Made by a program: the position numbers and the translations under genes. From Octopus sinensis (Eukaryota): 64,000 nucleotides of DNA. This document shows, piece by piece, positions 503 through 63,938 of this stretch. The notes under the pieces are model-generated. The model made no database searches, had not been told where the DNA came from, and saw only the letters and a program-made list of their open reading frames with translations. Location of the stretch: NCBI RefSeq assembly GCF_006345805.1, contig NC_043000.1:76694001-76758000 (forward strand), written 5' to 3'. Each line of letters starts with the position of its first letter. The first letter of the stretch is position 1.

Positions 503-2760
503 TTCGTTTTTGGATTTGGTTTGCAAGATTCTTTATATGAGTTCGTGTGTTGAAGCATATTCTGTTGTGTCTGGGGAGAGTCATTCTCTTCTAGTGCGTT
601 ATAATTTAACACTCTCACCGGTAAAGTTTCCACTTATTTCTTATTTTTATTTTCAAAAATTTTCGTTGCGTCTTGCAACCTTTTCAATAGTCTTGACTCT
701 GTCCGTTATTTACACTGCGTTCCCTTTTGTTTGTTTGTGCGCATGTGTGTGGGTCAGTGTGTGTGTGTGTGCCTATACATGCATGCATGTAGTATGTATG
801 TGTGTGTGTGTGTTTGCATGTGTATGTATGTATATATGTGTGTGTATGCATATGTATGTATGTGTGTGCATCTGTATGTACGTATCCTGCATATCTATGT
901 GCTTGCCTGTCCGTGTTTGTGTATTTTCTATGCATGTGTGTGTGAGCATGTGTTTGTATATGTATGTACCTCTGTTTCCTTGTGTGTGCATATCTGTGTG
1001 TGTGTTATGTAACTATGTACCATGTTTGTATGTATGGATGTGCATCTTTATATGTGTGGATCCGTGTCTCCATATGTGTCTGTTCTTGTAATCTATGTAT
1101 CTATCCGTCTGTATATTGATCTGTTTATTTACATATCCAAATGCTTACATATATAAATTAAAAAATAAATAAATAAATAAAGAAAATAAAAAATAAAATA
1201 AAAAATATAATAATAATAAAAAATATAAAAAAATAAAAAATAAAATAAAATATAAAAAATAAGAAATATAAAAAATATTAAAAAAACCCAAAAAACAAAC
1301 AAAAAATAATAATGATTAAAAAAAGGGCATACACCCACACTCACACCCACATACATAACAGTCCACTAACTATTCTACTCTATCTGTGTAAACTGGGTAT
1401 TGATGTATGGTATTTATTGTGTATATTTCCTATTTAATATTGGGGAAGTTTCATTTATAATGACGTACTCCCGTATTTGTCTAAGTGTTGGGTCTTTTTG
1501 GTGCTTGGATAAGATGCGGATGTCAAGTTGACCCAAGTTACCTCCATGGTGGTCTTTGGCATGTTGGAAGAGTATGGAGGACTGTCTTCTGTCGTCATAT
1601 TGTCTTAGATGTTCATTTATCCGTTCCGCAATGCTCCTAGACGTCTCCCCTATGTACATCATGTTCATGTCCTTACAAGCACCTTCTATGCATCTTATAC
1701 TGTAAACTACATTTCGAGTTCTACAGTTAATACTAGGGCTAATTCTACATACCATGCAGTTATCATTGGTGCATATGGTATTCTTAAACGGGTATGTCCT
1801 TCATAGTTGTGATCTGACGGAGTTCCCTGGCTTTTCAACAATTTTAATGTTGAGTTTGGTCTCCTTCAGAGCTTTTCTAAATCTACGGGCTAGTTCGCCA
1901 TGTGCTGTGGCCTCTACAAACATCACTCCTTGATATTTGTCGGTTTTATACCACGTGTTCGCCTTGTTTGCTTTGTCAAAAGCTCTTTGTATTCTATTCC
2001 ATTCTTTGTTTCTATATCTAGGGCAGGTACCACTGGTAATCATTACGTATAATGTTATCTAATTTTTTTCTAGCCCCCCTGTATACACAAACCCTATCTT
2101 TCTGATCATATCCAGAGAACTGCATGTGGTGTATGAAGTTCTATATATATTTCTTCATTTCATAAGGTTCGCATAGTGGGGACACATTGTTCATTATTCT
2201 AACTAGGTTTGCTATTAGTATGTCAATTTTCATGTTGTTGACAAAGCTGAGTTCTTGTGAACAACATATTTTGAAGTTACAGGTTTCATGTAATAAGAGT
2301 GGAGGAGCTGCACTCTATTGTTCACAGTCTCTAACCAAAGTTCAGTATCAAGTACAGGGAGTCTATTGATAGGGTGCTTAGTGGCCGTAATCTATAGCTA
2401 CCTTGATACTTTGGTGAATGGAGTTAGCTATTTGCTGGATGCTCTCCATTACGTTCTTCTCAGTCTCTACATTACCGTCACTAGAGTTGGTTCTAACTAT
2501 TATGTTTATGTCATCTACATATCTACTGTAGAGTAGAAGAGTTGTGACCTGTTCTGCTAACATTTGTTTAAATTTTCTGTCCCACCATGTCATGAAGACG
2601 CCAGCCACATCTCCAGCCAAACTTATACTAATGGCTGCACCTTGAACCTGCATGTATAGTTTTTTTATATAACTTTACTATGTGGTTTTTCAAGGTGGTT
2701 TCTACGCTGGTCCCTATTGCATATGCAATCATTTCCCTCACCTGATTGTTGTTCTCAGGG
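503..2760 (-). mobile_element. 5'-truncated, decayed Penelope-like retroelement (RT C-terminal part, Cys-knuckle linker, GIY-YIG endonuclease, CA-rich 3' tail)
   Basis: ORF 2378-2653 has GAAISISLAGDVAGVFM..YSRYVDD (RT). ORF 1801-2043 has MFVEAT..KIVEKPG. ORF 1414-1755 has NVVYSIRC..YIGETSRSIAERINEH (GIY-YIG), with CTNDNCMVC upstream. Frameshifts and stops present. Confidence 0.85.
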
Positions 2761-11052: not shown

Positions 11053-11157
11053 AAAAGTTTTGAATGGTACAACAATGCACTATAATACAGATAATACGCT
11101 ATATACCTGATGTAATGTAGTCATCCATAGTCTGATATGATATTTCGGAATAATATT

Positions 11158-11553
11158 ATGTCAGGTATGTTTGCCATCTCAATATGGCTAACCACTAAGG
11201 GTGGGTGTTACTATAGCTTGTAGCTCCAGGAGAACATCGTCTCCAGCTGGCTATTGACACATTTTCTGTGTCCTATCGGTATTTGCAAAGGGAGGTCATC
11301 CTTCCCTCGTCAACCTAAGTGATACGCACGTACTGCAGTTTCTAGGTATTGACCTGTCATCAGCGTACGACAATCACCGGTTTTCGATGAAAGGGGTCCC
11401 AATGCAAATACTTATATAGTTTTCCAGTAACTTTTCGTCATTGATCTCGAAAAACTGTATGCAAGCAATAATAAATCTCTGAACGAGGTATAAACAGTAA
11501 CTGCACGACAATGTGAGGTATGTTTGCCATCTCAATATGGCTAACCACTAAGG
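11158..11553 (-). mobile_element. Retrozyme-like 353-nt unit, about 1.1 monomers, with target-site duplication
   Basis: Terminal redundancy ATGT(c/g)AGGTATGTTTGCCATCTCAATATGGCTAACCACTAAGG at 11158 and 11511 (period 353). Flanked by GGAATAATATTA at 11147-11158 and 11552-11563. Confidence 0.8.
11325..11369 (-). ncRNA. Type I hammerhead ribozyme
   Basis: Minus strand: CGTACG-CTGATGA-c-AGGT-CAAT-ACCT-a-GAAAC-TGCA-GTA-CGTGCG. Confidence 0.8.
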
Positions 11554-12015
11554 AATAATATTACTTCTTCAGATATTCTGAGATGGAGTCGCTGCTATAA
11601 TCATATATATATATATACGACGGGCTTCTTTCAGTTTCCGTCTACCAAATCCACTCAAGGCTTTGGTCGGCCCGAAGCTACAGTAGAAGACATTAGCCCA
11701 AGGCGCCACGCAGTGGGACTGAACCCGGAACCATGTGGTTGGTAAGCAAGTTACTTACCACATTGCCACTCCTATTATTTGCTATTTTGATTAGCTTTCT
11801 ATGGGCTCCAGCAGGCTGAATCTTACGAAGTGTATTTTGGCCAATTACCATGTGGGTTAGATGTCACGGTTAGGTGAGGGTATTTAAAGGATAAATCAAA
11901 CCATTTCAATACACACACACACACACACACATACACACACACATGTATGTGTGTGTGTGTGTATGTAGAAAAACTATTAGTTCTAAATCTCGAGAAATAT
12001 GCAGCAACAATACTT

Positions 12016-12333
12016 TAGAATAAAGTTTATTTGCCAACGTAAAGTGACAGTCCTGATTAGTACGAATGTTACTACAATTTAGCCCCAGGAAAAAATCATC
12101 TCCTGCTGACTATCGACGCACTAACTGTGTCCTCATACTTCGAACAAAGGAGCTATTGTTCCCACTCAGCTCAAAGCGATATTGCTTTGACACTAGTTCC
12201 CTAGTCCGAAGTATAAGGACGCAGTTAGTGCGTCGATAGTCAGCTGCAGATGATGTTTTCCTGGGGCTAAATAATAGTAACATTTGTCCTAATCAGGACT
12301 GTCACTTTACGTTGGCAAATAAACTTTACTCTA
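12016..12333. repeat. Inverted repeat (about 135-bp arms) of a sequence related to the 353-nt family
   Basis: Arms are reverse-complementary. They share GTTACTA..TAGCCCCAGGA..CTCC.GCTG.CTAT.GAC.CA..CTGTGTCC with 11205-11275 and 34875-34945. Confidence 0.8.
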
Positions 12334-16494: not shown

Positions 16495-17518
16495 AATAGA
16501 GAATGATTCTGTAAACTACGAAACAAATGGCAGTCCGAAGGAGTAAAGTCGGGAGAATAAGGTGGATGAAGAATTTTTTCCCAACCAAGATCTTCGATCT
16601 TCTGTGATGTGATCGTTGCAGTGTGGGGTCGAGCATTGTCCTGATGAAACATCACTCCTTTTCGATTCTCTAAAGCGGGTCTTTTTTTCTTCAAAGCTTG
16701 GTTCAAACGACTCTAATTGCTGACAGTAGACTTGAGCATTGATCGTTGCATTCATTAGGTGGTAACAATTCAAAGTGAATTGCTCCTTTGCAACCCCACC
16801 AGATAGAAAGAAGAACATTTTTTCCACGAAGTTCCTTTCACGGTTGTGGTTGAGCTTTTCCCTTTTACCAAGCCACTGTTTACGGGTTTAACATTTCGAT
16901 AGAAGATCTATTTTGCTTCACCAGTCACAAGTCTATTCAAAAAGGATGAAATGAGTTCGCGAGAGTGGAGAGAAGAGCAGATGTCAACTCGGGGTTTGCA
17001 GTTGCTTTCGGACAATTCATGAGGCACCCATTTTCCAATTTTAGGAACCTTTCCAAGTTGTTGAAGATGACGATGAACAGTTGTATGGTTTGAACTAAGC
17101 TTTATTGCCACTGATAATGCAGTATTTTCTTCAAGCAGTGCCTCAAGGAGCTTATCAAATTCAACTGGACGTCCTGTTTGATCTTCATCTTCAAGGCTGA
17201 AATCTCCACTTCTGAATTTTACAAACGATCTTCTGCAAGTTCTGTCATTCTTTCCCATAAACTGAGTGTATGTTTCGAGTCGCTTCGGCTGCAGAGTTTC
17301 CTTTTTTGTACTCATAAAGCATTATGTGTCTTAAATGCTCTTTGGATACTTTCATGTTAGAAAGGGTTTTAATCAAAGAAGTTTTAATTCTATTATTCTA
17401 TAAAATAATAATTAATTTAAATGTACACAAATTTTTAATTCCATTAGATATTCTAAAATACTATTAAATTTCATTTAATTTGAATAAAGGTAAAATCGGA
17501 CAGAACTTATGGGATGAC

Positions 17519-29034: not shown

Positions 29035-31382
29035 CTATTACGTTACACATACAAAAATTAACAACTGCTCAATATTTTATAGGGTATGCTCTTCTCCTGA
29101 TTTATGATACTGTAATGAAGATTCTTCGCTCCCCGGTCACAAAGTGTATGTTAACAGACTGCTACCAGGTCCGTACCTCACAACTCCACCGCTTTTACAT
29201 AATCACGAATTATTTGTAATATTCTCCGCATTAATGGATTTGCACATTGGATATTCCTTTAAAAATATTCCTACACCATTAAATGAACTATACAAAAGAA
29301 TGCTACTTCGAAAAATTATTGATATTACAAGACGCATGAGGTTGAAAGCTTTTTTCTTCGACCAAGATGCACCACACTGGGACAAAGACCACTTTAACAT
29401 CAGGCCTAGAAAATTCCCACCCAAGATTAAAGAACTCGAAACTTTCAAAGCAGACCTGCTGGGTATTATACCAAACCTTAAGTTTCGTAAGTCCTCATCC
29501 ACCTTTCGACGTTGACTTAGATCCGATATACACCTCCTTAAGAATTCAGATGGAACCCTACTATTTTCAGATAAGACAAATAATCTTTATAAGATAGATA
29601 ACGACGACCACAACAGGCTCTTAGAGAACAACATCGCACAAAAATATAGACGGGCCGCACCACATACCTATGATAACATCAATAATGAGGCAAAACGAAT
29701 AGTCACCGACCTGGACATTGCCGACAGGGTAGAAATGCTAGCTAAACATAATGCCTTTATAACTATCAAGGATCATAAACCGAAATTCGCTTCCAACCCT
29801 AAATGCCACCTGATTAACCCCGCCAAGTCCGAAATCGGACTTGTGAGTAAACACATCCTAAAAAGGGTTAATAAAGACATAAGGAAGGTATCTAATTTCT
29901 CTTTACACCACAATTGAGGTGTTACATTGGTTTGAGACCAAACGAAACACTTTTAGAGCTAAGTTCATGCAATTCGATATAGTAGACTTTTATCCATCGA
30001 TATTGAAAATGTTACTTGATAGTTAGTATATGCTAGACGAATTACCTACGTAAGTGATAGAGAAATAGATATAATTATGCACGCTAGGAAAACGCTACTA
30101 TTCAACAATGATTCAACCTGGGTCAAACGAACTTACCCTGAAGGCTCATTCTACGTCGCAATGGGGGCATACTACAGCGCTGATATTTGCGACCTTATAG
30201 GGTTTTACATTCTGGACACCCTAGGTAATAAATCCCCTCTGTCCACTTCGGCTTATATAGAGATGATGCCTTAGCCATCTCCAGAGGCGCTAACGGCCAT
30301 ACCTTAGATAGGCTTAGAAAAGACATCATACACACCCTCAACGACCTTGGCCTTAAAATCACCATAAAAACTAACCTTACCGTGGTGAACTTCTGGGATG
30401 TCACGCTTGATCTAGTTAGTGGCACCTACAGACCATACCGTAAACCGAATGATAGGCTATCGTACATTAATACAGCCTCCTGCCACCTACCCATAGTGTT
30501 CAAAAACATAATAAAAAGTATCCGTAAATAGATTTCTTCAAATAAAGTTATTTTCGATGAAAATGAGGCGCTAGCGGCCAGCGGGTTCAAAGGGAATATA
30601 GTATATATACCAGGATTGAGTAACCATAAAAGGAAATGCCACCGCAAGACCTTTGGTTAGCTCTCCCCTTCTTCCTAAACGTCCGGACGTGCGTAGGTAA
30701 GCTTTTTCTTAGGTTGGTTCATAAACATTTCACGCGATCATGCAAATATAGAAAGATCTTTAACAGATATAATTTAAGAATCTTTCAGCTGTGCACCTAA
30801 TGTTAAGAAAAAAACTACCTAGCACTCCTAAACTACGGACAGAGGTAGATTGTTCATGCAGGATTAGAAATGGATGCCCAGTGGACGGCTGATGTAACAT
30901 CGAGGTTACAGTGTAGCAGCGCAAATATCAATAACATAAATGCCAACACAGGGACACACACTAAAATTTATGTCGTATCTTGTGAATCCAAATTTAAAAT
31001 TCGTCTGAACAACCACAGATCTTCTTTCAGGTTCCCGGAGAGACGCGTCTCAACAACACTCGCAGCAAACGTATGGCGCCTAAAAGAAGACTGTGTAAAT
31101 TGTGTATGGCAGAAAGATATATTATCCTTATGATCTTACTCAGGAGGCTACCTGAACATTAGGACGGAAGCTGTGGGGAGTTGTCCACATTTTCGGAAAT
31201 TTTCTTTTAAAAATTGGAAAACCTAGCGATAGCTCGGTTTTCCAATTTCCGTCCTAATGTTCCGGTGAAAGACGTGAAAGAAGACAACTCGCCTGGCCAT
31301 AATTTTTTAAGAGGAATATTTCTTGAACTATCACCGGCGTTCTTATGTTTAAAGAAACGTTCTTTGCAGAGAACAGTTATCA

Positions 31383-34640: not shown

Positions 34641-34994
34641 TTTGTAATACTGCTTTTCTTTGGATTGTAATATTAGAGCGCTTGAAATCTAACATCTCAA
34701 TGAAATTTTTATGTATTCTGTATTCCAATGATAAAGGAACTTGACTTACAAAAATCTGTCATCCACTTATATATATATATAACAATGATAAATATCAAAG
34801 TGAGTTATATACAGTAGCGGTAACACATCGTGACGTATTTTTGCCATTTCAATATGGCTAACCTCTAAGGGTGGATGCTACTGTAGTTTTTAGCCCCAGG
34901 AGGACACACTCCTCCAGCTGGCCATAGACACACTATCTGTGTCCTGTCAGTATTTGCAAAGGGAAGTCATCCTTCCCGTCTTCAACTTATGATA

Positions 34995-35039
34995 CACACG
35001 GACTCGAGTTTCGAGGTATTGACCTCTCGTCAGCGTGTG
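34995..35039 (-). ncRNA. Canonical type I hammerhead (left arm)
   Basis: Exact reverse complement of 35355-35399. Confidence 0.9.
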
Positions 35040-35354
35040 ACAATCATAGTTGTCGCCGAGAATTAGATTTCCTTCACAAATACTTATACTTTTTCCAGCG
35101 TCCACTGTCGCTGATATTGAAAAAGTGAAATCAAACAATGATAAATATCAAAGTGAGTTATATACAGTAGCGGTAGGGGTTAGCCATATTGAAATGGCAA
35201 AAATACGTCACGATGTGTTACCGCTACTGTATATAACTCACTTTGATATTTATCATTGTTTGATTTCACTTTTTCAATATCAGCGACAGTGGACGCTGGA
35301 AAAAGTATAAGTATTTGTGAAGGAAATCTAATTCTCGGCGACAACTATGATTGT

Positions 35355-35399
35355 CACACGCTGACGAGAGGTCAATACCTCGAAACTCGAGTCCGTGTG
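35355..35399 (+). ncRNA. Canonical type I hammerhead (right arm)
   Basis: CACACG-CTGACGA-GAGGT-CAAT-ACCTC-GAAAC-TCGA-GTC-CGTGTG. Stems are perfect, the core is complete and the GUC site is after 35393. Confidence 0.92.
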
Positions 35400-35563
35400 T
35401 ATCATAAGTTGAAGACGGGAAGGATGACTTCCCTTTGCAAATACTGACAGGACACAGATAGTGTGTCTATGGCCAGCTGGAGGAGTGTGTCCTCCTGGGG
35501 CTAAAAACTACAGTAGCATCCACCCTTAGAGGTTAGCCATATTGAAATGGCAAAAATACGTCA

Positions 35564-35633
<70 letters not shown>

Positions 35634-39197: not shown

Positions 39198-39539
39198 CAC
39201 ACACACACACACACGCTTCCTATTGCTTATGATGGTCCTATGGGATGACGTCAGCAGCAGGGTGAGGTGACCGGAAGTTGGGGCTGACCGGAAGGGAGCA
39301 GCCGGGACGCGCGCGCAGCGAGAGGGGATTTCGGCCTTTTCGAACGAGGGTCGTCGGCGTGTTAAGACGGGTGAACACGTTGCTAAGGTTGGGCGAAGCA
39401 GCTGCTATCTTTAGCGTTCGGGTCGGGCTGTGTCGAAGGATCCGTTACTACTGAGCGAAGAGAAGGTAGGTGCCTTTATATTCGAATCTCTAGCACACAC
39501 CACAAGCTATTTCGGCACTCCACATAAGTCGTCACCACG

Positions 39540-40040
39540 ATGTCTGCGAAAATCAGGATCGCCAGCGACATCATCAGACCCTTCAATGGTGAAGGCGATG
39601 TAGTGGCCTGGATTCGTAAAATCAGGCTGGTGGCAAGACTGCAAGGTATAAGCGATGTGGCAAGTCTTATGGCGCTGTATTTAGAAGGGAGCGCGTTAAC
39701 GCTATACCTTGAAATGGAGGATGAGGAACGCCTGATCGAGGAAAAAATAGAGCAACGATTGCGGGATGCCTACACAGAGTGTGAATACACAGCTTTTGCT
39801 AAGCTGGGTACGATTAGATGGACAGGAGGACAGGTGGACGAGTACTCGGCAGAAGTTAGAAGGTTAGCGACGCTAGCTGGGTTTACGGGAGAAGGTCCGG
39901 AGAAGGCAGCGCGACTGGCATTTGTAAATGGGTTCCCCGTCGATGTAGGGATTCACCTGCAACAATTGCCCGGGATTAAAAAGATGGCGCTGAGCGAACT
40001 TGTGACTCAAGATCGCGTGTTGACGCGACACTCTGGGCAG
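39540..40040 (+). pseudogene. Gag-like protein of the gypsy element
   Basis: PFNGEGDVVAWIRK..LYLEGSAL..FVNGFP. Fused directly to RT sequence. Confidence 0.75.
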
Positions 40041-40041
40041 A

Positions 40042-42185
40042 GTGCTACCCCCGATGACGGTGGTGCAGCCTACGAAGGGAAAAGTCAGACCGGTGCTGGA
40101 CTTCAGGGAGCTAAACCAGCATATATCGTGTCACCCGGGAGGTGAGGCGACAGACGTTTGTGGCGAGACGTTACGTGCGTGGAGACAGTCGACCGAGGCA
40201 GCGACGATTTTCGACTTGAAATCGGCATACTTGCAGCTCCATGTGAGCGACAAACTGGCGATATCAGCTGGTGCGGTACAAACGCCGGACGTACTGTTTA
40301 ACCAGGCTGGGTTTCGGGCTGAATTCCGCTCCGAAAGACGGCAAGATTAGAAAGGCCACCAGCTCCTACACTGACGACATTTTGATGGACGAAACTGTAG
40401 TGCCAGCCAACGAGGTAGTTAGACATCTGGAGAAGTTCGGACTGATTGCGAAGCCACCGGAGTCGATGGAAGGGGGAGCCGCGCTGGGGCTGAAGCTGCG
40501 AAGAGATAGATCGGGTGAATTGGTGTTCCGGAGAGGGAATGAAATGCCACAGCTGAGTTCCAGCGTCAGCAGGAGAGAGCTGTTCTCGGTATGTGGGAAG
40601 TTGGTCGGTCACTACCCGATCGCCGAATGGCTGCGCACGGCGTGCAGTTACACCAAGAGACGAGCAGAAGGGAGAGTTGGGGCGACAAGGTGGGATGATG
40701 CAGGAAATCCTAGAGAGGACGAGAACGGAAGACCCGGTCAGGGGGAACTGGTACGTGCCCAAGACGGAATGCGGGACCGTCTGGTGTGATGCTAGCAGTA
40801 TAGCGATAGGGGTTGTGTTGGTAATCGAAGGTGCTGCGGTGGAGGACGCGGCCTGGCTTCGGAAAGCAGATGACTTAAACCACATCAATGTCGCCGAATT
40901 AGACGCGGTGTTGAAAGGGGTTAACTTGGCCCTGAAATGGGGGCTGCGCACAATTGAAATTCGGACGGATTCGGCCACTGTGCTTGGCTGGGTAGGATCG
41001 GTGATCACCGGTGAAAGGAGAGTGCGGACGAAAGGTGCCGCGGAGATGTTAGTGAAGCGCCGTCTAGGAGTTCTAGGTGAATTGATCGCCGAGTTCGGAC
41101 TGAAGCTGAATGTGGTTTTCGTGCCTTCGGAGAAAAACAGGGCAGACGCACTGACCAGGGTGAAAAGAGCGTGGTTGGAAGAACCGGAGGAGGCCCCGAA
41201 AGGGATAGCTGCGGCGTGTCGGTTGGATGACTCTGAACTGAAGAGACTGCATGCTATGCATCACCTGGGTGTGGACAGGACCCTGTATCTGGCGAAGAAA
41301 ATTGATGCTGACATCACTAGGAGAAGCATCCGGAAGGTGGTCGGGAGCTGCGACAGGTGTCAGTCCATCGACCCTGCTCCGTGTGGGCATGAACAGGGAA
41401 GCCTTTCGGTGGAACAGCACTGGAAAAGGGTAGCTGTGGATGTGACACACTACCGTCAGGGAATGTACCTCTCCATGATCGACTGCGGGCCAGGCCGGCT
41501 GGCCATTTGGAGGGAGTTGAGAACGGGCATTGCTGACGAGATCGCGCAGATCCTGAACGGGATATTTTTAGAGAGAGGTCCCGTGGAAGAACTACTGATG
41601 GACAACGGGGCGGCGTTTTGTTCGGAAGCATTGAGGGTTATGCTTGATCGGTGGAAGGTGCGTCGCTTGTACAGAGCAGCGTATAGGCCAAGCGGTAACG
41701 GGATCGGGGAGAGGCACCATCGGACAGTCAAGGCCATAGCGGAAAGAGGGCACATTTCGCCGCTTGAAGCAGGTTTTTGGTACAACTTGTCTCCCCGATC
41801 CGGACAAGCTGAGGAATCTGTGCCGCAAAGAGCTGTATTTAAATATGAATGGAGGTACCCGAGCAAAGCGCCGGAGGTCCACGAGGAAGAGAAGGGACCC
41901 GTTTGCGTGAAAATAGGGGAGGAAGTCTGGGTTAATCCACCAAAGGCGCGCTGTACGTCTCAATGGAGCAGAGGAACGGTGCCGGCGGTCAATTCCAGAA
42001 ACAACATCTCTGTGGATGGAATCCCGCGACACGTCTTGGACCTTCGCAGGATCGTCGCTTCGACGGACGACGATTCTGGAGAGGGGGAGAACGAGGTGCC
42101 CAGCTTGAGAAGATCTCGACGTGCAAGGCGCCCTCCCGGTTGGATGGTGGACTACGACATAGAGCGGAGAGACTGTGATCTTTAA
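40042..42185 (+). pseudogene. Frameshifted pol (RT, RNase H, integrase)
   Basis: RT motifs VRPVLDFRELN, DLKSAYLQ, RLGFGLNSAP and YTDD. RNase H motifs WCDAS..INVAELDA..TDS..NRADALTR. Integrase motifs HHCC and VDVT..MDNG..GIGERHH. Confidence 0.92.
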
Positions 42186-45462: not shown

Positions 45463-45507
<45 letters not shown>

Positions 45508-45521
45508 TAATAATAATAATG

Positions 45522-45576
<55 letters not shown>

Positions 45577-48486
45577 GTATACGCAGCAGCCACTGCAGCC
45601 ACAAAAGAAACTGGATACTCACTCAAACCCATCCAAACAGGAGTACCACCACCCAAATATGTGGATAAATAACATCCAAAACAAAATACAAAAAATGAGA
45701 AAAGATCTGTCGATTCTTAATGAAATCAGTAGACAATCAACGCTACTGAGCAACAAAAAGAACCCAAAAATACTCCGCAAATATACCATCACAGAAAAAG
45801 ATTTACCTGAGATAAAAGAAAAGCTGAAGCAAGATATCCTTGCCAAAGCACAAAGGATCCGCCGGTACGAGAAACGCCAGCGCTTCTTTGAACAAAACAA
45901 AAAGTTCAACTCCAACCTCAAAAAGTTCTACCAAGAACTTGGCAAAAATAAAATAGAAATCACTGCAGCACCAACGGCAGAAGAAGTGGAAGAATTCTGG
46001 AGAGAAATATGGTCGGCGAACGAACAACCAAAAAAAAAAAAGGAGTATTAAAACAACAAACTCAGCATCTGAGCAACTTTGGATCCCCATAACAACTGAA
46101 GAGGTCACCCAGGCACTGCAAAGACTAAGCAACTGGAAGGCACCTGGGCATGACAAGATCCCCAACTTGAAATATCTAACAGGAATGCACAAAAAGCTAG
46201 CTGAAAACTTCAACAACATACTAGCAGAGCCAGAGACAATGCCTGAATGGCTCACGAAGGGGAAAACCATCTTAATTCCCAAATCCAATGAGACAGCAAA
46301 ACCAGAAAACTACAGACCAATAACCTGTCTCCCTACAATGTACAAGGCATTTACTGCAGTGATATCGCAAAGGCTGAACAAGCACCTGGACGAAAACAAC
46401 CTGTTCCCAGAAGAGCAGAAAGGATGCCGCAAAGGCTCATATGGCTGTAAAGATCAACTAATGATTAATAAAGCCATAACTGAAGACAGCCACAGAAAGA
46501 AGAAAGGCTTCAGTATGGCCTAGATCGACTACAAAAAGGCGTTTGATAGCATCCCCCACACATGGATCCTCGAAACACTAGCCATTAACAAAGTAGCATC
46601 AACAATTATAAAATTCATAGGGCACTCTATGAATAAATGGCAAACAGTGCTACAGCTCCAAACAAAAGAGGGACACATGAAAACCAAAGCCATCCCCATT
46701 AGAAGAGGAATATTCCAGGGAGACACGCTCTCTCCACTCCTCTTCTGCTTGGCACTGTAACCTCTATCTCTTATGCTAAATAGAACTGGATGCGGATATA
46801 AATGTTACGGCAAAACGATCAGTCACCTTTTATATATGGATGATCTAAAACTATACGCTGCAAATGACAAACAGCTGGAAACACTATTAAAGACAGTTCA
46901 TGGATTTACCAAAGAAATAGATGTGAAATTTGGATTAGAAAAATGCGCCAAAGTAACCATGAAAAGAGGAAAACTAGTTAAGAGTAGCAACATCACACTA
47001 GATAAAACCAATGAAATAAAAGAATTAGACCAAAGTCAAACTTACAAATACTTAGGAATCCATGAACTAGATAAGACACAACACACACAAATGAAAGAGA
47101 AAATAAAAAAAGAATATTATAGACGAGTTAGATCAATACTAAAAACAGAGCTCAATGCTAAAAACAAGATAATAGGTATTAACACTTTAGCTGTCCCAGT
47201 TATAAGTTATAGCTTCAATATCCTTAACTGGACACTAAATGAACTGACCAAAATAGATAGAAAAACAAGAAAAATAATGACAGGATCTAGGATGCATCAC
47301 CCAAAATGTGACATAAAAGACTATATATTCAACGTATAGAAGGTGGTAGAGGCCTTATAAGCTGGAAAACTACTATAAAATAACCACCAGAGGACTGCAA
47401 AAATATCTACTTCAGAAGGAAGGAAAACTGATACAAATAGCGGCAAAACACGAGCAAAACAAAAAACTGTTCTCAGTATTTAAGGAAACTGACAAATACA
47501 AACAATAAATCATACCACCTAATAATTATGAAGAAGAAGAAGAAGAAGATGAAGAAACAACAAAAGCTATAAAACAAATGAAATCCAAACTAAAAATAGA
47601 ACAGCAACGAACCATGATAAAACGATGGCAAGAAAAGCCCCTTCATGGTAAATACTGGACTAAACTAAACGCAAAAGAAATAGACAAAGAAAAATCCCAG
47701 CAATGGTTAAGAAGCTCAGGACTCAAAGCAGAGACAGAGGGATTTTTAATTGCAGCACAAGATCAAAGCCTCCCCACCAGAAATTACCAAAAACATGTAA
47801 TGAAAAGAAATATAACAAGTAACTGCAGAATATGTGGAGATGGACAAGAAACAATAAATCATATTATCTCTGGCTGCCCAGTCCTGGCTAAGAAGGAATA
47901 TATTCACAGACATGACAGAGTTGGAACCTACATACATTGGAAGCTATGCCAACATTATGGAATAACAACAGAAAAAAGATGGTATAGGCACACACCAGAA
48001 AGGGTCACAGAAAACGAGAAAGCAACCGTACTCTGGGATATGCCGATACACACAGATAGAGAAATTAAGGCCAACAGACCAGATATAGTTGTCAGAGATC
48101 ATGAAGAAAAAAATGCTTTCTAATTGATGTATCAATACCGGCAGATGATAACGTGTTTCTAAAAGAAATGGAGAAACTCTCAAAATACAAAGACCTGGAA
48201 ATAGAGGTAACCAGAATGTGGAATCTAAAAACAGAAACAATTCCTATCATAGTAGGTGCATTAAGCATGATAAAAAAATATTCAGACAAATATATAACAA
48301 AAACATTAGGACTTACAAACACATATAACATACAGAAAATTGCACTACTAGGCACCGCACACATCCTACGCAGAACACTTTCCATACAATAACCATCAGA
48401 GAATCACAACAAATCACAGTACATACCTAAGGCACACAGTGCTGCGTACGGTAGTGAAGTGAAAGCACGCTATAAAAATAAAACTA

Positions 48487-48490
<4 letters not shown>
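45577..48490 (+). mobile_element. 5'-truncated R4/Dong-type non-LTR retrotransposon (RT, CCHC finger, restriction-like endonuclease) in (TAA)n
   Basis: NYRPITCLPT, EQKGC, DYKKAFDS, GIFQGDTLSP, HLLYMDDLKLY, CRICG..ETINHIISGC, RHD, NRPDIVV and KYKDL motifs. (TAA)n on both sides. A few stops and frameshifts. Confidence 0.92.
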
Positions 48491-48542
<52 letters not shown>

Positions 48543-48558
48543 TAATAATAATAATAAT

Positions 48559-49134
48559 AATATGTGGAGATGGACAAGAAACAATAAATCATATTATCTC
48601 TAGCTGCCCAGTCCTGGCTAAGAAGGAATATATTCACAGACATGACAGAGTTGGAACCTACATACATTGGAAGCTATGCCAACATTATGGAATAACAGCA
48701 GAAAAAAGATGGTATAGGCACACATCAGAAAAGGTCACAGAAAACGAGAAAGCAACCATACTCTGGGATATGCCGATACACACAGATAGAGAAATTAAGG
48801 CCAACAGACCAGATATAGTTGTCAGAGATCATGAAGAAAAAAATGCTTTCTAATTGATGTATCAATACCGGCAGATGACAACGTGTCTCTAAAAGAAATG
48901 GAGAAACTCTCAAAATACAAAGACCTGGAAATAGAGGTAACTAGAAAAAAACACCAGGACTTACAAACACATATAACATACAGAAAATTGCACTACTAGG
49001 CACTGCACACATCCTACGCAGAACACTTTCCATACAATAACCATCAGAGCATCACAACAAATCACAGCACATACCCAAGGCACACAGAGCTGCGCTCGGT
49101 AGTGAAGTGAAAGCACGATATAAAAATAAAACTA

Positions 49135-49290: not shown

Positions 49291-51384
49291 CCTTTATCGG
49301 GTCGAAATGGGTCATTTTGACTCATGAAGGCACATTTTCGTTCTGATTTTTGCGCTGTTAGTTGAAATTGTCTACCCTTTCCTCTAGCTGCCTCTCTTAA
49401 TAAATTGGAAAAGTTTTTTGTGGCACTTGTTCTCCAGTGATCTACTATTTATGTATCTGTCATTTTGACTCATTTAGACTCTGAATGTTAGATTATTTTA
49501 CTTTTACTTTTTACTTTCTCAGGTTGAAAAATGACATCACAACGTGTGCTAGAATTGCTGGAAAGTGATTCAGATTTTTCTGACTTTGAGAATGAGTTCA
49601 GTGATTCTGAATCCGAAGAAGAATTGATTGAGAAAAATGACCATGACTCCAAGTCAGAACAAGAGTTATCAAGTTCTGATGAGAATAGTGAAAGCGTCCT
49701 ACGTCCTTGGAGAAGGTGTTCTGCCCTGCGTGCAAAGTCAGGAGTTGAGTTTTCGTTTCAATGTGCAACACGGAGCCCAAAACATAGGACAGGAGAACCG
49801 AGTGCGATTGGCGTTGCAATGAGTCCAAAATCTCCTTTGGAAATCTTTAACCTGTTCATACCCCCAGCTTTGATAAACGAAATTACAGATCATACAAACC
49901 AAAGAATTGAGATGGTCAAGGAACAATACAATTCCAAATACTGTGCTGGTGAAACGACTAGTTAGGAAATTTCGGCTGTTTTGGGAATTATAGTCATCTC
50001 TGGAACTGAGAAAGCTTCTCGTCACGACATTGAAAACTTTTGGAATTCTGTAGGAACTGGAATGGACTTGTGATCCGTGATGTGTTAGAGATGATTCAAA
50101 TTTCTCCTAAGTCAAATGCGTTTTGATGAGCAGCGTGCAACCGACCGTCTCGCTCCAATTCGAGACATTTTTGAAAGGGTGGTGGCAGTTTTTCGTCAGA
50201 CGTACAATCTTACAGAGCATTTGACTCTCGACGAAGCTCAAGAAGTATTTCGAGGCAGATGTGGATTTGTCCAAAACATGCTTCTAAAACCTACTAAATA
50301 TGGAATAAAGCTGCAATGCTTATCTGACGCCCAAATTAATTACATATGCAATATGGAAATGCACCCTGGAAAACAGCCTGATGGTCCATTCCAGCTTTCC
50401 AATAAACCATATGACATCAAGCTGCGCCAACGATTAATATACCATTGTGTACCATTAGCTGAAAATTTCTTGAAAAACAAAGAAACTCTCGTTGGAACGA
50501 TGAAGAAAAAACCCAGACATTCACCAGAAATGATGCCGAAGAGATATCGAGAGGTTCACAGTTCCAAGTTCGCATTCCGAAAAGATTTGATGACTGTTTT
50601 ATATGTGTCTAAGAAAAAAAAACGCAGTTATATTGCTGCCTACGATGCATTTTAGTGCAAGCATTGACAAATTAACTGGACACAAATAGATACTTTCAGT
50701 AGTGACATTCTACAATGTCACTAAAAACAGTGTGGACACTGCTGACAAAAAAATGTGCTGCTACGTCTTGCTCCAGACGCACGGACCGATGGCCGATGTC
50801 ATTGTTCTATTCCTTCCTGGACAAAGTTTGCTTGAATTCCTTTGTGATATACATTTGGAATAACGAGAAGGATAGTCTACGATCTCGAAGAAATTTTTTG
50901 AGATCATTTGGAAAAGAACTTATGAGGGAACAACTTGAAATACGTTTGCAAAGTTGAACTGGAATACAGGAGTTGCAAAAGACTATTGAAACCTGTGCTT
51001 CTAGATTGGGAATGAATATTCCACTAGTTCATGTACATCCTGATGAAGGTATCCCAAGAGATGGACGAAGAGTTCGATAATATTCTGTGCTGGAAAAGGT
51101 CACAAGACAAACACGTGTTGCTCAAAATGTGTCAAACCAATGTACAAGGAGCACCAAGGACCTCCAACCAGCAAAGATTGTGAGGAATAAAAATACTAAA
51201 GTGCATTTCAGTTCATTGTGATGAATAATTACCTTTTTTCGTTTCTGTGTTCGAAACAAACATTTTTGACAATGAAAAGAACAATGAATGTCATCTGATG
51301 CACATTAAAATTAAAAAAGGGCTACGGGTCAAAATGACCCATTTCGACCCTTAGTGTATGAAAAAGATTTCCACCCGTTAAAGG
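49291..51384 (+). mobile_element. Decayed piggyBac transposon
   Basis: Ends CCTTTA.CGGGT.GAAAT and ..AAAGG|TTAA, with subterminal inverted repeat GGGTCGAAATGGGTCATTTTGAC. Acidic N-terminus, DRLAPIR, LTLDE..FRGRC..KPTKYGIK and RRTDRWPM motifs. Confidence 0.92.
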
Positions 51385-60163: not shown

Positions 60164-61040
60164 TATGTTTGACTTTTGCTTTATATTTGTACAAGTTGGC
60201 TCCAAGTCTCACCCAGAGACCTCAAGAGACAACAGATTGGAAGTTCACGTTGTTGTTATGCCTAGTGTGCCATATATTTGGGTTTTTTTTGGTGTTGTAC
60301 TAGTGAATGTCTAATAAATAAATAAAAAAAAATTGTTTGTTTTAAACCTTGAGATTACATAGAAAGTATTTTGCGTAGGATATGAGCAGTTCCAATGAGC
60401 ACTATCTTTTGAATTTCTGCCATTTTGGGGTTTCCTGGTATCTGAGTTAGGTAGCAATCAGCCCCTTTCGCTATCATTCCCAGGGCACCTATGACAACAG
60501 GTATTGTTTTAGTCTTCAGGTTCCACATTTTGCTGATTTCTATTTCAAGATCTTTATATTTGCTCAGTTTTTGGTAGGTCTTAAGAGATACGTTTATATC
60601 GATTGGGACTGTCATATCAATGAGGAGGCATGTTCTTTGTCTGAAGTCTTTCAATATGATGTCTGGCCTATTTGCATCTATCTTTCTGTCAGTTTGAATG
60701 GTGAAGTTCCAGAGGAGTGAGATGTGGTCATTTTCAAGCACTGGAGGTGGTTTGTGTTCCCCCCAGTTCTTTTCATGGGGCAAATCCAGGTTTTTGCAAA
60801 TTACCCAGTGAATATATTGTGCAGCTCTATCATGCCTGCTGAGATACTCTGTAGGCGCTAGAAGACTGCACTTGGAGACAACATGATCAATGGTTTCATT
60901 TTGTTGTTGAAATACACGACATGTTGGGCTACTGCCGTTCTTTAATATGTTGGCCTGGTAGTTTCTTGTTGGTAGGCATAGATCTTGAGCTGCTATGATA
61001 AACCCCTCTGTTTCAGATTTTAAGCCAGAGGCCATTAGCC
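60163..61040 (-). mobile_element. 5'-truncated Dong/R4-type LINE (second subfamily) in (TTA)n
   Basis: SGLKSETEGFIIAAQD, ETIDHVVSKC, RHD, NRPDII..LIDM and KYKDL motifs. (TTA)n on both sides. Confidence 0.9.
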
Positions 61041-61099
<59 letters not shown>

Positions 61100-62559: not shown

Positions 62560-63129
62560 CCTGCAACATTCACTTTCATTTATTTCTTGAGATGGCAAAA
62601 TTTTCGTGACATCGCTACGAAACGGTCACTACAAGACTACTCCAATAATAGTGGAAACTGTGTGTATTAGTGACAAGATCGCAGTAGTTTAACATCTCAT
62701 GAAATATTAAAGTATATTTAAATCTTTTGTACATATTTGAATGGCTTTTGATATTGCTTTTTTATATGTTATATAATATGGTGTTGTAGCTGTTCTACTT
62801 GCTAGTTGTGTTGTTACTTTAAATGTTTCCTTATTGCCCAACTTTTATGTGCTGAGAGGGATTCTTTGGTGTTTGAATAATTCACCTCTGGAAACAATGG
62901 ATGTTTTTTCAACATCCTTAATCAACCCTTATTCAGGGACCTTTTGAGCAGGATGGGTTACTCGACCAGAAAACGGGTTACCCGACTGGGTCCCACCTGC
63001 AAGGTCATGTGCTGTTTATCTTGAAATGAGATCACCATGTCGCGTACATATGGTTGTGATGTATGTGCCTAGTGTACTCTTATCAGACGGGTAGTCATGA
63101 TGGGTATACTGGGCTTCGTATATTTTACA

Positions 63130-63555
63130 TATTTTACATATTTCAGTAATTGACCAGTTAACTATATTGAAACTGTAAGTCATGACTGGTATGGCTAAAG
63201 CATTGATCGCTTCAATCCTGTTTCTCGCATTCAGCTCTGTCTTGAGTATTGCTCTTACTCTGCGATAACATTCTCTCCTGGTCCTTTCCTTCATCACTGA
63301 ATGCCTTATTCCGCCCCCTTCAATTACCCCTAGGTACTTGTAGCTCTCCGCTGGGTCTAATTCTTTTATGACATTCTGCTGGTCAAGGTTAACGTTAGAT
63401 GTTTCCGTCATTTTTTCTTTGATAAAAGTAGCTTTTGCACATTTATCGGGGCCAAATTGCATTCTGATGTCATCACTGAATTGTTTAACAATCGCTATTA
63501 TGTCTTTGAGTTGTTGGTCATTTTTTGCAAAGAGCTTTAAGTCATCCATGTACAT
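63130..63555 (-). pseudogene. Dong/R4-type RT fragment
   Basis: YMDDLKLFAKND..FGPDKCAK..YKYLGV..ILKTELNARN..AIPVMTYSF. Confidence 0.85.
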
Positions 63556-63593
63556 AGATGTAAACTTATGCATACATAGGTACACGCACATAA

Positions 63594-63642
<49 letters not shown>

Positions 63643-63938
63643 TGTATGTAATATTGCAAATGTGTGTGTATGTAATAAGGTCAAAATATCCCTTCATCGA
63701 AGTAAAATTAGTGATCCGATAAGAAACATTAAAATATTAAAATAATCAAGTGAAAAGGCATCTAGCCACAGATCAGATACTTTGTCATATGATTTGTATG
63801 TAAAACATGTTATACACGCGCCCGCGCGAACACACACACAGCTCAAACGTGCACTTTTACTGTTTTCGTGTCTATGTGCGTGTTTCTTTCTTTCTATATG
63901 GTCGCTTTTTTATCTGTCTGTCTATATATCTATCTATG

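What the first reader, a model, noticed from the sequence alone, without database searches (positions are those of the whole stretch)
11147..11563. Independent, diverged copy of the 353-nt unit with the same period, a 12-bp TSD and a covarying ribozyme
Seen: redundancy at 11158 and 11511 (period 353), flanked by GGAATAATATTA direct repeats. Compared with the 35-kb copy, the ribozyme keeps its pairing despite changes: stem I CGTACG/CGTGCG versus CACACG/CGTGTG, loop III TGCA versus TCGA (both palindromic), site GTA versus GTC. Inference: insertion by target-primed reverse transcription, with selection on unit length and RNA structure. All three copies overshoot the monomer by about 40 nt, which hints at a fixed RT run-on length.
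Basis: partly seen in the sequence, partly recalled or inferred. Interest (0 to 1): 0.8.

Follow-up and report, generated by a model that had tools for sequence, protein, structure and literature searches.

The report
Hammerhead retrozyme targeted by Tx1 LINE
This is a decaying copy of an abundant 353-base mobile repeat that carries a predicted self-cutting RNA and was likely spread by Penelope-type enzymes; elsewhere in the genome a second jumping gene sits almost only at one spot just ahead of that RNA motif.

Summary
In detail: a 353-bp period, a true 12-bp target-site duplication (14 of 14 paralogs of the flank carry the 12-mer once) and a type I hammerhead on the minus strand. It is one copy of a high-copy animal non-LTR retrozyme family. 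Its insertions have Penelope-like (PLE) anatomy: two fixed 3' ends about 46 nt apart, variable 5' truncation, 9-15-bp TSDs, and inverted pairs that nearly always join one end of each type (26/27, 14/14). Covariation is real between subfamilies, including the catalytic pair C3-G8/U3-A8, but inserted copies decay neutrally and GTA is a private mutation. The fixed 40-nt run-on is refuted (0 of 97 arms at 385-402 nt). The autonomous PLE was not found, and expression and cleavage are untested. Following the family revealed two Tx1-like LINE subfamilies inserted at one site 55 nt upstream of the cleavage site (28 of 30 and 9 of 9 3' ends, 11-bp TSDs, several host subfamilies); the 11-kb copy is an empty target. 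I found no paper on this target in three searches; this scan has noted Tx1 elements in hammerhead-bearing Penelope ends in two other genomes.

The parts
11147..11158 (+). Left copy of the 12-bp target-site duplication
   Evidence: 14 of 14 flank paralogs hold the 12-mer once, ending in C; both window copies end in A; joint 11146>11552 in 4 of 4 runs
11552..11563 (+). Right copy of the TSD; its first two bases also match the element (microhomology at the 5' junction)
11159..11551 (-). Retrozyme insertion, subfamily A: one 353-bp unit plus 40 bp; fixed 3' end E1 at 11159, truncated 5' end at 11551
   Evidence: differs from the column majority of 24 sisters at 14 of 353 positions
11318..11378 (-). 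Type I hammerhead: distal helix I, helix I (6 bp), CUGAUGA 11363-11357, helix II, GAAA 11342-11339, 2-bp helix III with palindromic loop UGCA, N17 at 11331
11375..11388 (-). Empty target site of the Tx1-like LINE (ATC then GAAAACCGGTG, the 11 bp duplicated at occupied sites)
11463..11511 (-). Segment that forms the 41-53-nt 'tail' (second 3' end, E2) in other copies; not used as a tail in this copy
11058..11603 (.). Host repeat (about 190-215 bp when uninterrupted; ends approximate) split by the insertion
   Evidence: (1255 candidates)
34781..35567 (.). Subfamily B locus: head-to-head inverted pair in (TA)n; left arm ends at the tail end E2, right arm at E1
12067..12133 (-). Old fragment of the same family (77% over 69 bp)

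Best explanation
The 11-kb element is a 393-bp insertion of a non-coding 353-bp hammerhead repeat (an animal non-LTR retrozyme), flanked by a 12-bp target duplication and likely copied into the genome by the reverse transcriptase-endonuclease of a Penelope-like element. Inferred steps: a multimeric or circular RNA of the minus strand is bound by the PLE protein; the endonuclease nicks AT-rich DNA on both strands about 9-15 bp apart; reverse transcription starts inside the RNA at E1 (172 nt 3' of the ribozyme cleavage site) or E2 (about 46 nt further), reads through the uncut or re-ligated ribozyme and stops at a variable point. One primed strand gives a simple insertion like this one; two primed strands, one at E1 and one at E2, give the inverted pairs. 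The ribozyme is selected in the source lineages (probably to cut and circularise the RNA as a dimer through the palindromic loop III), while inserted copies decay. Shown separately: two Tx1-like LINE subfamilies have inserted repeatedly at one site just upstream of the hammerhead, with an 11-bp duplication that leaves the downstream ribozyme whole.
For: Outer 3' ends: A 47 E1, 40 E2, 9 other of 96; B 29, 21, 2 of 52; tail 41-53 nt. Inverted pairs E1/E2 26 of 27 (P 2e-7) and 14 of 14 (P 4e-5). 5' ends spread over the unit; 1 of 97 and 2 of 56 near the cleavage site, while 28 and 39 arms read through it. TSDs 9-15 bp. Tandem arrays of 5-6 units. These match the PLE features described in PMC8557442 (passages) and the two internal RT start sites that define the tail in PMC11167929 (parts 1-2 of 4). 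Covariation: 91% of cells paired, 10 of 22 pairs with both-side changes, C3-G8/U3-A8 paired in 30 of 30, slid controls 24-50%. A private G is shared by both redundant ends of the 11-kb copy. GIY-YIG PLE families are abundant here. LINE.
Against: No autonomous PLE sharing sequence with the unit was found: 50 loci of two GIY-YIG families showed no pLTR match or hammerhead beyond nested retrozyme copies. No RNA evidence was obtained. Rfam has no hit. Subfamily A has a C-A mismatch at the base of helix II (15 of 30 rows unpaired at that position), so its ribozyme may be weak. Within A the core mutates about as fast as the rest (3.2% versus 4.1%). The 30 aligned rows were hand-picked and fall into about seven related subfamilies, so the shuffle control overstates significance. 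Only 16 of 36 clean insertions show a TSD.
Confidence: 0.8

Rival explanations
1. The unit is simply the solo terminal repeat (pLTR) left by 5'-truncated copies of an autonomous PLE, not a self-standing retrozyme lineage.
For: All end features are PLE-like; hammerheads sit in pLTRs (PMC4209133 part 1 of 4); a preprint argues retrozymes derive from pLTRs.
Against: Arms longer than one unit run into the next unit, not into an ORF; among outward flanks of 97 insertions the only shared non-family extension at a 5' end was the Tx1-like LINE, the other shared flanks being unrelated repeats or an internal family gap.
Confidence: 0.1
2. The Tx1-like LINE (or another LINE) is the autonomous partner that mobilises the retrozyme.
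For: Intimate association: 28 of 30 and 9 of 9 LINE 3' ends lie at the retrozyme site; PMC7229834 (Discussion) lists LINEs as candidates.
Against: The LINE's own insertions have one target and an 11-bp TSD, whereas retrozymes go into AT-rich or (TA)n DNA with two 3' ends and inversions; the two share no 3' sequence.
Confidence: 0.04
3. LINE-containing loci are copies of a few composite retrozyme+LINE units spread by the PLE machinery rather than independent targeted insertions.
For: All 17 resolved hosts extend into a second unit versus 8 of 17 unoccupied A arms passing the site; L166 shows 967 nt of LINE carried inside a PLE-type inverted insertion; host labels cluster slightly on the LINE tree (9 changes versus 11.5 shuffled, 0 of 200).
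Against: LINE tree is star-like, copies about 97% identical across hosts that match the A reference at only 74-95%; each TSD carries its own host's sequence on both sides; 19 of 21 copies keep the LINE 5' end although PLE-made A arms are mostly under 353 nt (85 of 97); tandem LINEs re-use the duplicated site.
Confidence: 0.12
4. RT runs on for a fixed 40 nt beyond one unit.
For: Three window arms of 394-395 nt; 5 of 56 B 5' ends at phase 36-46 (P 0.03, uncorrected).
Against: 0 of 97 A arms and 3 of 56 B arms at 385-402 nt; overshoots of arms longer than a unit range 14-191 (A) and 4-349 (B). The B excess sits at a TA dinucleotide next to (TA)n targets and can be microhomology.
Confidence: 0.04

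Closest known systems
Animal non-LTR retrozymes (Cervera and de la Pena 2020, PMC7229834; Li, Clavereau and Pollet 2026, bioRxiv 10.64898/2026.07.22.740005)
   Same: Non-coding unit of about 350 bp, canonical type I hammerhead with weak helix III and palindromic loop, monomers to short tandem arrays, TSD longer than 4 bp.
   Different: Here the integration anatomy is tabulated and is PLE-type (two fixed 3' ends, inversions); in the parts I read those papers infer the PLE link from shared ribozymes, co-occurrence and pLTR phylogeny. Circular RNA and self-cleavage are untested here.
Penelope-like elements and their non-autonomous derivatives (PMC8557442, PMC11167929, PMC4209133)
   Same: Partial tandems, inverted 5'-truncated partner, tail on one end, internal RT starts, AT-rich or (TA)n targets, hammerhead; U3-A8 core variant already reported in Schistosoma PLEs.
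   Different: No ORF; tail 41-53 nt rather than 30-40; parent PLE not identified; near-strict E1/E2 pairing in inverted insertions is quantified here.
Target-specific Tx1-clade LINEs (Tx1L in Tx1D, Keno, Kibi/Koshi, Tx1-Mar; PMC4494074)
   Same: APE + RT + zf-RVT ORF2, one target site and orientation in a multicopy sequence, tandem re-insertion, constant TSD.
   Different: Target is a hammerhead retrozyme, 55 nt upstream of the cleavage site; listed targets are DNA and LTR transposons, snRNA, 5S, microsatellites and unspecified 'satellites' (figure not seen).

Membership tests
Animal non-LTR retrozyme | Type I hammerhead in each unit | tested here: met
   not detected by Rfam
Animal non-LTR retrozyme | Short non-coding unit in monomers to tandem arrays | tested here: met
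   no ORF of 120 aa or more over 11147-11563; arrays of 5-6 units
Animal non-LTR retrozyme | TSD longer than 4 bp | tested here: met
   9-15 bp at 16 of 36 clean insertions; 12 bp here
Animal non-LTR retrozyme | Expressed as linear and circular monomer RNA | not tested
   no confirmed host RNA run with a large share was listed; the one read-laying run went to the empty-site test
Animal non-LTR retrozyme | Self-cleavage in vitro | not testable with these tools
   covariation only
Autonomous Penelope-like element | ORF with RT and GIY-YIG endonuclease | tested here: not met
   units run into units; so not an autonomous PLE
PLE-mobilised non-autonomous element | Fixed 3' end plus optional tail, 5' truncation, inverted partner | tested here: met
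PLE-mobilised non-autonomous element | Sequence shared with the pLTR of an autonomous PLE in the genome | tested here: inconclusive
   none in 50 loci of two families; other PLE families not examined
Tx1 clade (the LINE in the target site) | ORF2 with APE endonuclease, RT and C-terminal zinc domain | tested here: met
   PF03372, PF00078, PF13966 in L104 frames, the last two below curated cut-offs; no unbroken ORF2 in 20 loci, longest frame 752 aa
Tx1 clade (the LINE in the target site) | RT closer to Tx1 than to L1 | tested here: met
   229 bits to Xenopus TX1 149-kDa protein versus 163 to human L1 ORF2p; score comparison only, no reference tree built
Tx1 clade (the LINE in the target site) | Target specificity (over 20% of flanks in one sequence type, criterion of PMC4494074) | tested here: met
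   25 of 30 directly in the retrozyme, 3 tandem at the duplicated site, 2 elsewhere; sister subfamily 7 + 2 of 9

The most novel reading that the evidence does not exclude
A three-tier parasite chain: a PLE mobilises the retrozyme, and Tx1 LINEs target the retrozyme just upstream of its hammerhead in order to use it, being transcribed from the host repeat and having their RNA 3' end cut by the host ribozyme 55 nt past the LINE, which leaves a target-matching primer-binding tail in place of poly(A). With the scan's notes from other genomes, hammerhead-bearing PLE ends would be a recurrent, undescribed Tx1 target class across animal phyla.
Probability: 0.3. Interest if true: 0.78.

Novelty: new variant of a known kind. 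Interest (0 to 1): 0.52.

Why it matters
The 11-kb copy alone is an ordinary, decaying member of a known class. The family matters in two ways. First, which enzyme spreads animal retrozymes is an open question argued so far from co-occurrence and phylogeny; the two fixed 3' ends and the near-strict E1/E2 pairing give direct anatomical evidence for PLE priming, predict exact RT start sites, and suggest that one protein dimer primes both target strands at two different RNA sites. Second, a Tx1-like LINE that lands at one base of a ribozyme-bearing repeat adds a target type to site-specific retrotransposons, a group of interest as programmable insertion tools, and raises the testable idea that it borrows the host's ribozyme for RNA processing.

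Tried and rejected
Rfam scans of the window and the element: no hammerhead hit. The repeat finder and TRF were swamped by microsatellites. Fixed overshoot: rejected. 5' ends at the ribozyme cleavage site, as a cut linear monomer would give: not enriched. One-way fold-back from the tail end as the source of inversions: rejected because either arm can be the longer; arms of one locus are barely more alike than arms of different loci (96.4 versus 95.4% in A, 99.1 versus 98.6% in B). Search for the autonomous PLE: a recalled Pfam accession was not in the library; two GIY-YIG protein searches gave 20 and 30 loci without a matching pLTR or hammerhead; all-versus-all flanks gave no shared ORF. Empty site in other runs: the joint is present in 4 of 4 runs, but the flank is itself a repeat, so it need not be the orthologous site. 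TSDs in subfamily B cannot be read in (TA)n (21 of 37 versus a null of 55%). Earlier-finding look-ups by sequence and by place returned nothing. Rows dropped: hits under 24 nt, TA-repeat hits to the end of reference B, clusters within 60 nt of a locus edge; five LINE rows too short or deleted for the tree; the unit-length script stopped after six hosts. Supplements of the papers were not opened; the target list in Fig. 3 of PMC4494074 could not be seen and may bear on novelty.

Full report
1. Observation. The unique insert is 11159-11551. The ribozyme lies on the minus strand and is a canonical animal type I hammerhead: 6-bp helix I extended by a distal helix, CUGAUGA, 4-5-bp helix II, GAAA, 2-bp helix III with a palindromic loop. 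Rfam misses it. The 12-mer is a real TSD: the flank is another repeat (1255 candidates) and 14 of 14 fetched paralogs carry the 12-mer once, ending in C, while both window copies end in A. Contigs of 4 of 4 public runs from three coded organisms also join 11146 to 11552, though these may be paralogs.

2. The family. G000 is a 2.7-Gb, microsatellite-rich animal genome (cephalopod-like by my recall; no call tested that). The element gave 4061 candidates; exact motifs near the fixed end gave 748 hits, the listed ones subfamily B, the 35-kb type, and 545 hits for subfamily A, the 11-kb type. I took the first listed loci in genome order, without regard to length: 60 stretches for A and 32 for B (12, 20), giving 61 and 36 insertions after edge filtering. 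In ribozyme sense, outer 3' ends fall in two classes: E1 (47 in A, 29 in B) and E2, a tail 41-53 nt further (40, 21), with 9 and 2 others. 5' ends are spread: arms 24-807 nt in A and 24-1813 in B. Head-to-head pairs join one E1 and one E2 arm in 26 of 27 and 14 of 14 assignable cases (P 2e-7, 4e-5 under independent choice). TSDs of 9-15 bp occur at 16 of 36 A insertions with clean flanks versus 3 of 408 mismatched pairs. B goes mostly into (TA)n. In A, but not B, the two arms of a pair stop at similar template positions (median gap 23 versus 57.5 nt, P 0.00025; B P 0.6).

3. The 40-nt overshoot. Not a rule: 0 of 97 A arms and 3 of 56 B arms are 385-402 nt. The window's three similar lengths have two causes: 5' truncation near phase 40 (11-kb copy, right 35-kb arm) and a 3' tail (left 35-kb arm). 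B shows a weak excess of 5' ends at phase 36-46 (5 of 56, uncorrected P 0.03), at a TA next to TA targets. The fixed length that does exist is the tail.

4. Covariation. In 30 hand-picked rows from about seven subfamilies, 91% of cells pair, 10 of 22 pairs change on both sides, and slid controls pair 24-50%. The tertiary catalytic pair is C3-G8 in 21, U3-A8 in 8, U-G in 1. Loop III is UGCA, UCGA, CCGG, CGCG or UA in the main subfamilies, all palindromes, as expected for a dimeric hammerhead (PMC4209133, part 1 of 4 read, which also reports U3-A8 in Schistosoma PLEs). The rows are related, so this is a handful of independent events. Within A, core positions differ from the column majority at 3.2% versus 4.1% elsewhere, and GTA is in 0 of 24 sisters: copies decay after insertion. 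A has a C-A mismatch at the base of helix II.

5. Mechanism. The anatomy is that of PLEs: partial tandems, an inverted truncated partner and a tail on one end (PMC8557442, passages). PMC11167929 (parts 1-2 of 4) shows a PLE protein cutting and extending both strands of AT-rich DNA and starting at two internal RNA sites whose spacing is the tail, on unprocessed RNA. Here 28 A and 39 B arms read through the cleavage site and only 1 of 97 and 2 of 56 stop near it, so the template was uncut multimer or circle (inferred). Both redundant ends of the 11-kb copy share a private base, which fits a circle read past its start or a homogeneous array. PMC7229834 (passages and Discussion) proposes PLEs as the likely partner, and the 2026 preprint (parts 1-3 of 5) supports it by co-occurrence and pLTR phylogeny. 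The partner itself was not found in 50 loci of two GIY-YIG families.

6. A LINE that targets the family. Three A insertions ended at phase 225-230 in one foreign sequence. A 29-mer of that sequence, holding only 3 bases that also fit the target, has 38 exact hits; of 30 fetched, two being discovery loci, 25 run directly into the retrozyme at the same base, 3 into a copy of the target 11-mer followed by another LINE, and 2 elsewhere. Of 21 long loci, 19 keep the LINE 5' end, typically about 5.3 kb upstream, and show an 11-bp duplication (7-11 of 11 matching; 11-14 bp given a shared ATC) whose sequence follows the host subfamily. A sister LINE about 82% identical gives 9 of 9 at the same site, 7 direct and 2 tandem, the 2 tandem ones already seen. 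ORF2 has APE, RT and zf-RVT domains and scores 229 bits to Xenopus Tx1 versus 163 to human L1. The tree of 23 copies is star-like and hosts are not monophyletic, with slight clustering, which favours independent insertions. Occupancy in the length-unselected samples is 3 of 26 A sites and 0 of 60 B sites, whose sequence differs there; B's youth could equally explain this. The LINE is co-oriented with the ribozyme, shows no poly(A) at these junctions, and ends 55 nt upstream of the cleavage site. Unexplained: all 17 resolved hosts reach into a second unit, versus 8 of 17 unoccupied A arms (the Fisher values there used a hand tally of 10 versus 9). The 11-kb copy has the intact empty site at 11375-11388.

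7. What is known. Retrozymes, PLE tails and Tx1 target specificity for other transposons are all in print (PMC4494074, passages and one section; PMC4640811 and PMC8869645, passages). Searches for Tx1 with retrozyme/hammerhead, with satellite, and with Penelope and for octopus or cephalopod ribozymes showed no report of this family or target in the listings; subscription papers and Repbase are not covered. After I had recorded the LINE, the scan's index returned two unchecked AI notes of Tx1 elements at hammerhead-bearing Penelope ends in other genomes.

8. Verdict. Observation confirmed; interpretation partly supported. The copy is a new member of a known class (confidence 0.9 that it is a non-LTR retrozyme, 0.8 that a PLE mobilised it). 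The family-level anatomy and the Tx1 target (about 0.85 that targeting is real) make it a new variant of known kinds. Interest 0.52.

Noticed in passing
L104 (G000:C2:75365500-75373500), L191-L210, L256-L264: Two Tx1-like LINE subfamilies inserted at one site of the retrozyme with 11-bp TSDs, often full length and in tandem.
   Followed up: yes
L166 (G000:C2:159163361-159166389): 967 nt of the LINE 3' end carried inside a PLE-type inverted E1/E2 insertion, so the PLE machinery can likely copy the chimera.
   Followed up: partly
L166-L168, L172, L182, L187-L189: Retrozyme subfamilies with a U3-A8 hammerhead core and different palindromic loops III (UA, CGCG, UGCA).
   Followed up: partly
L064-L120 inverted pairs: In subfamily A the two inverted arms tend to stop at similar template positions; one junction overlaps by 8 nt at a palindrome; not seen in B.
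   Followed up: partly
window 11058-11158 and 11564-11603; L212-L225: The host is a short abundant repeat that itself occurs as head-to-head inverted pairs, possibly another PLE-mobilised element; no hammerhead found in it.
   Followed up: partly
window 1414-1800 (-): GIY-YIG end of an abundant PLE family (8597 candidates) with a long low-complexity 3' region and no hammerhead detected nearby.
   Followed up: partly
L125:500-1030, L129:1-870, L136:1470-2200: PLE-like RT and GIY-YIG fragments (Neptune-like by recalled motifs) ending in (TA)n beside subfamily B copies; the L129 family has 15993 candidates and shares the target preference but no sequence with the retrozyme.
   Followed up: partly
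window 29108-29917 (+): Broken ORF fragments resembling a PLE RT N-terminus by recalled motifs; no Pfam hit.
   Followed up: no
window 39528-42185 (+): GC-rich LTR-retrotransposon-like gag/pol fragments with RNase H and integrase domains.
   Followed up: no
window 45506-48853 (+), 60355-61098 (-), 63016-63693 (-): Broken non-LTR retrotransposon ORF2 fragments; RVT_1 hit at 46761-47339.
   Followed up: no
window 49528-50655 (+) and 16516-17321 (-): DNA-transposon fragments: DDE_Tnp_1_7 hit at 50095-50655; mariner-like piece by recall, no Pfam hit.
   Followed up: no
window 11604-11775: A very high-copy short repeat next to TA runs, depth about a hundredfold above the retrozyme, seen beside many fetched loci.
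   Followed up: no
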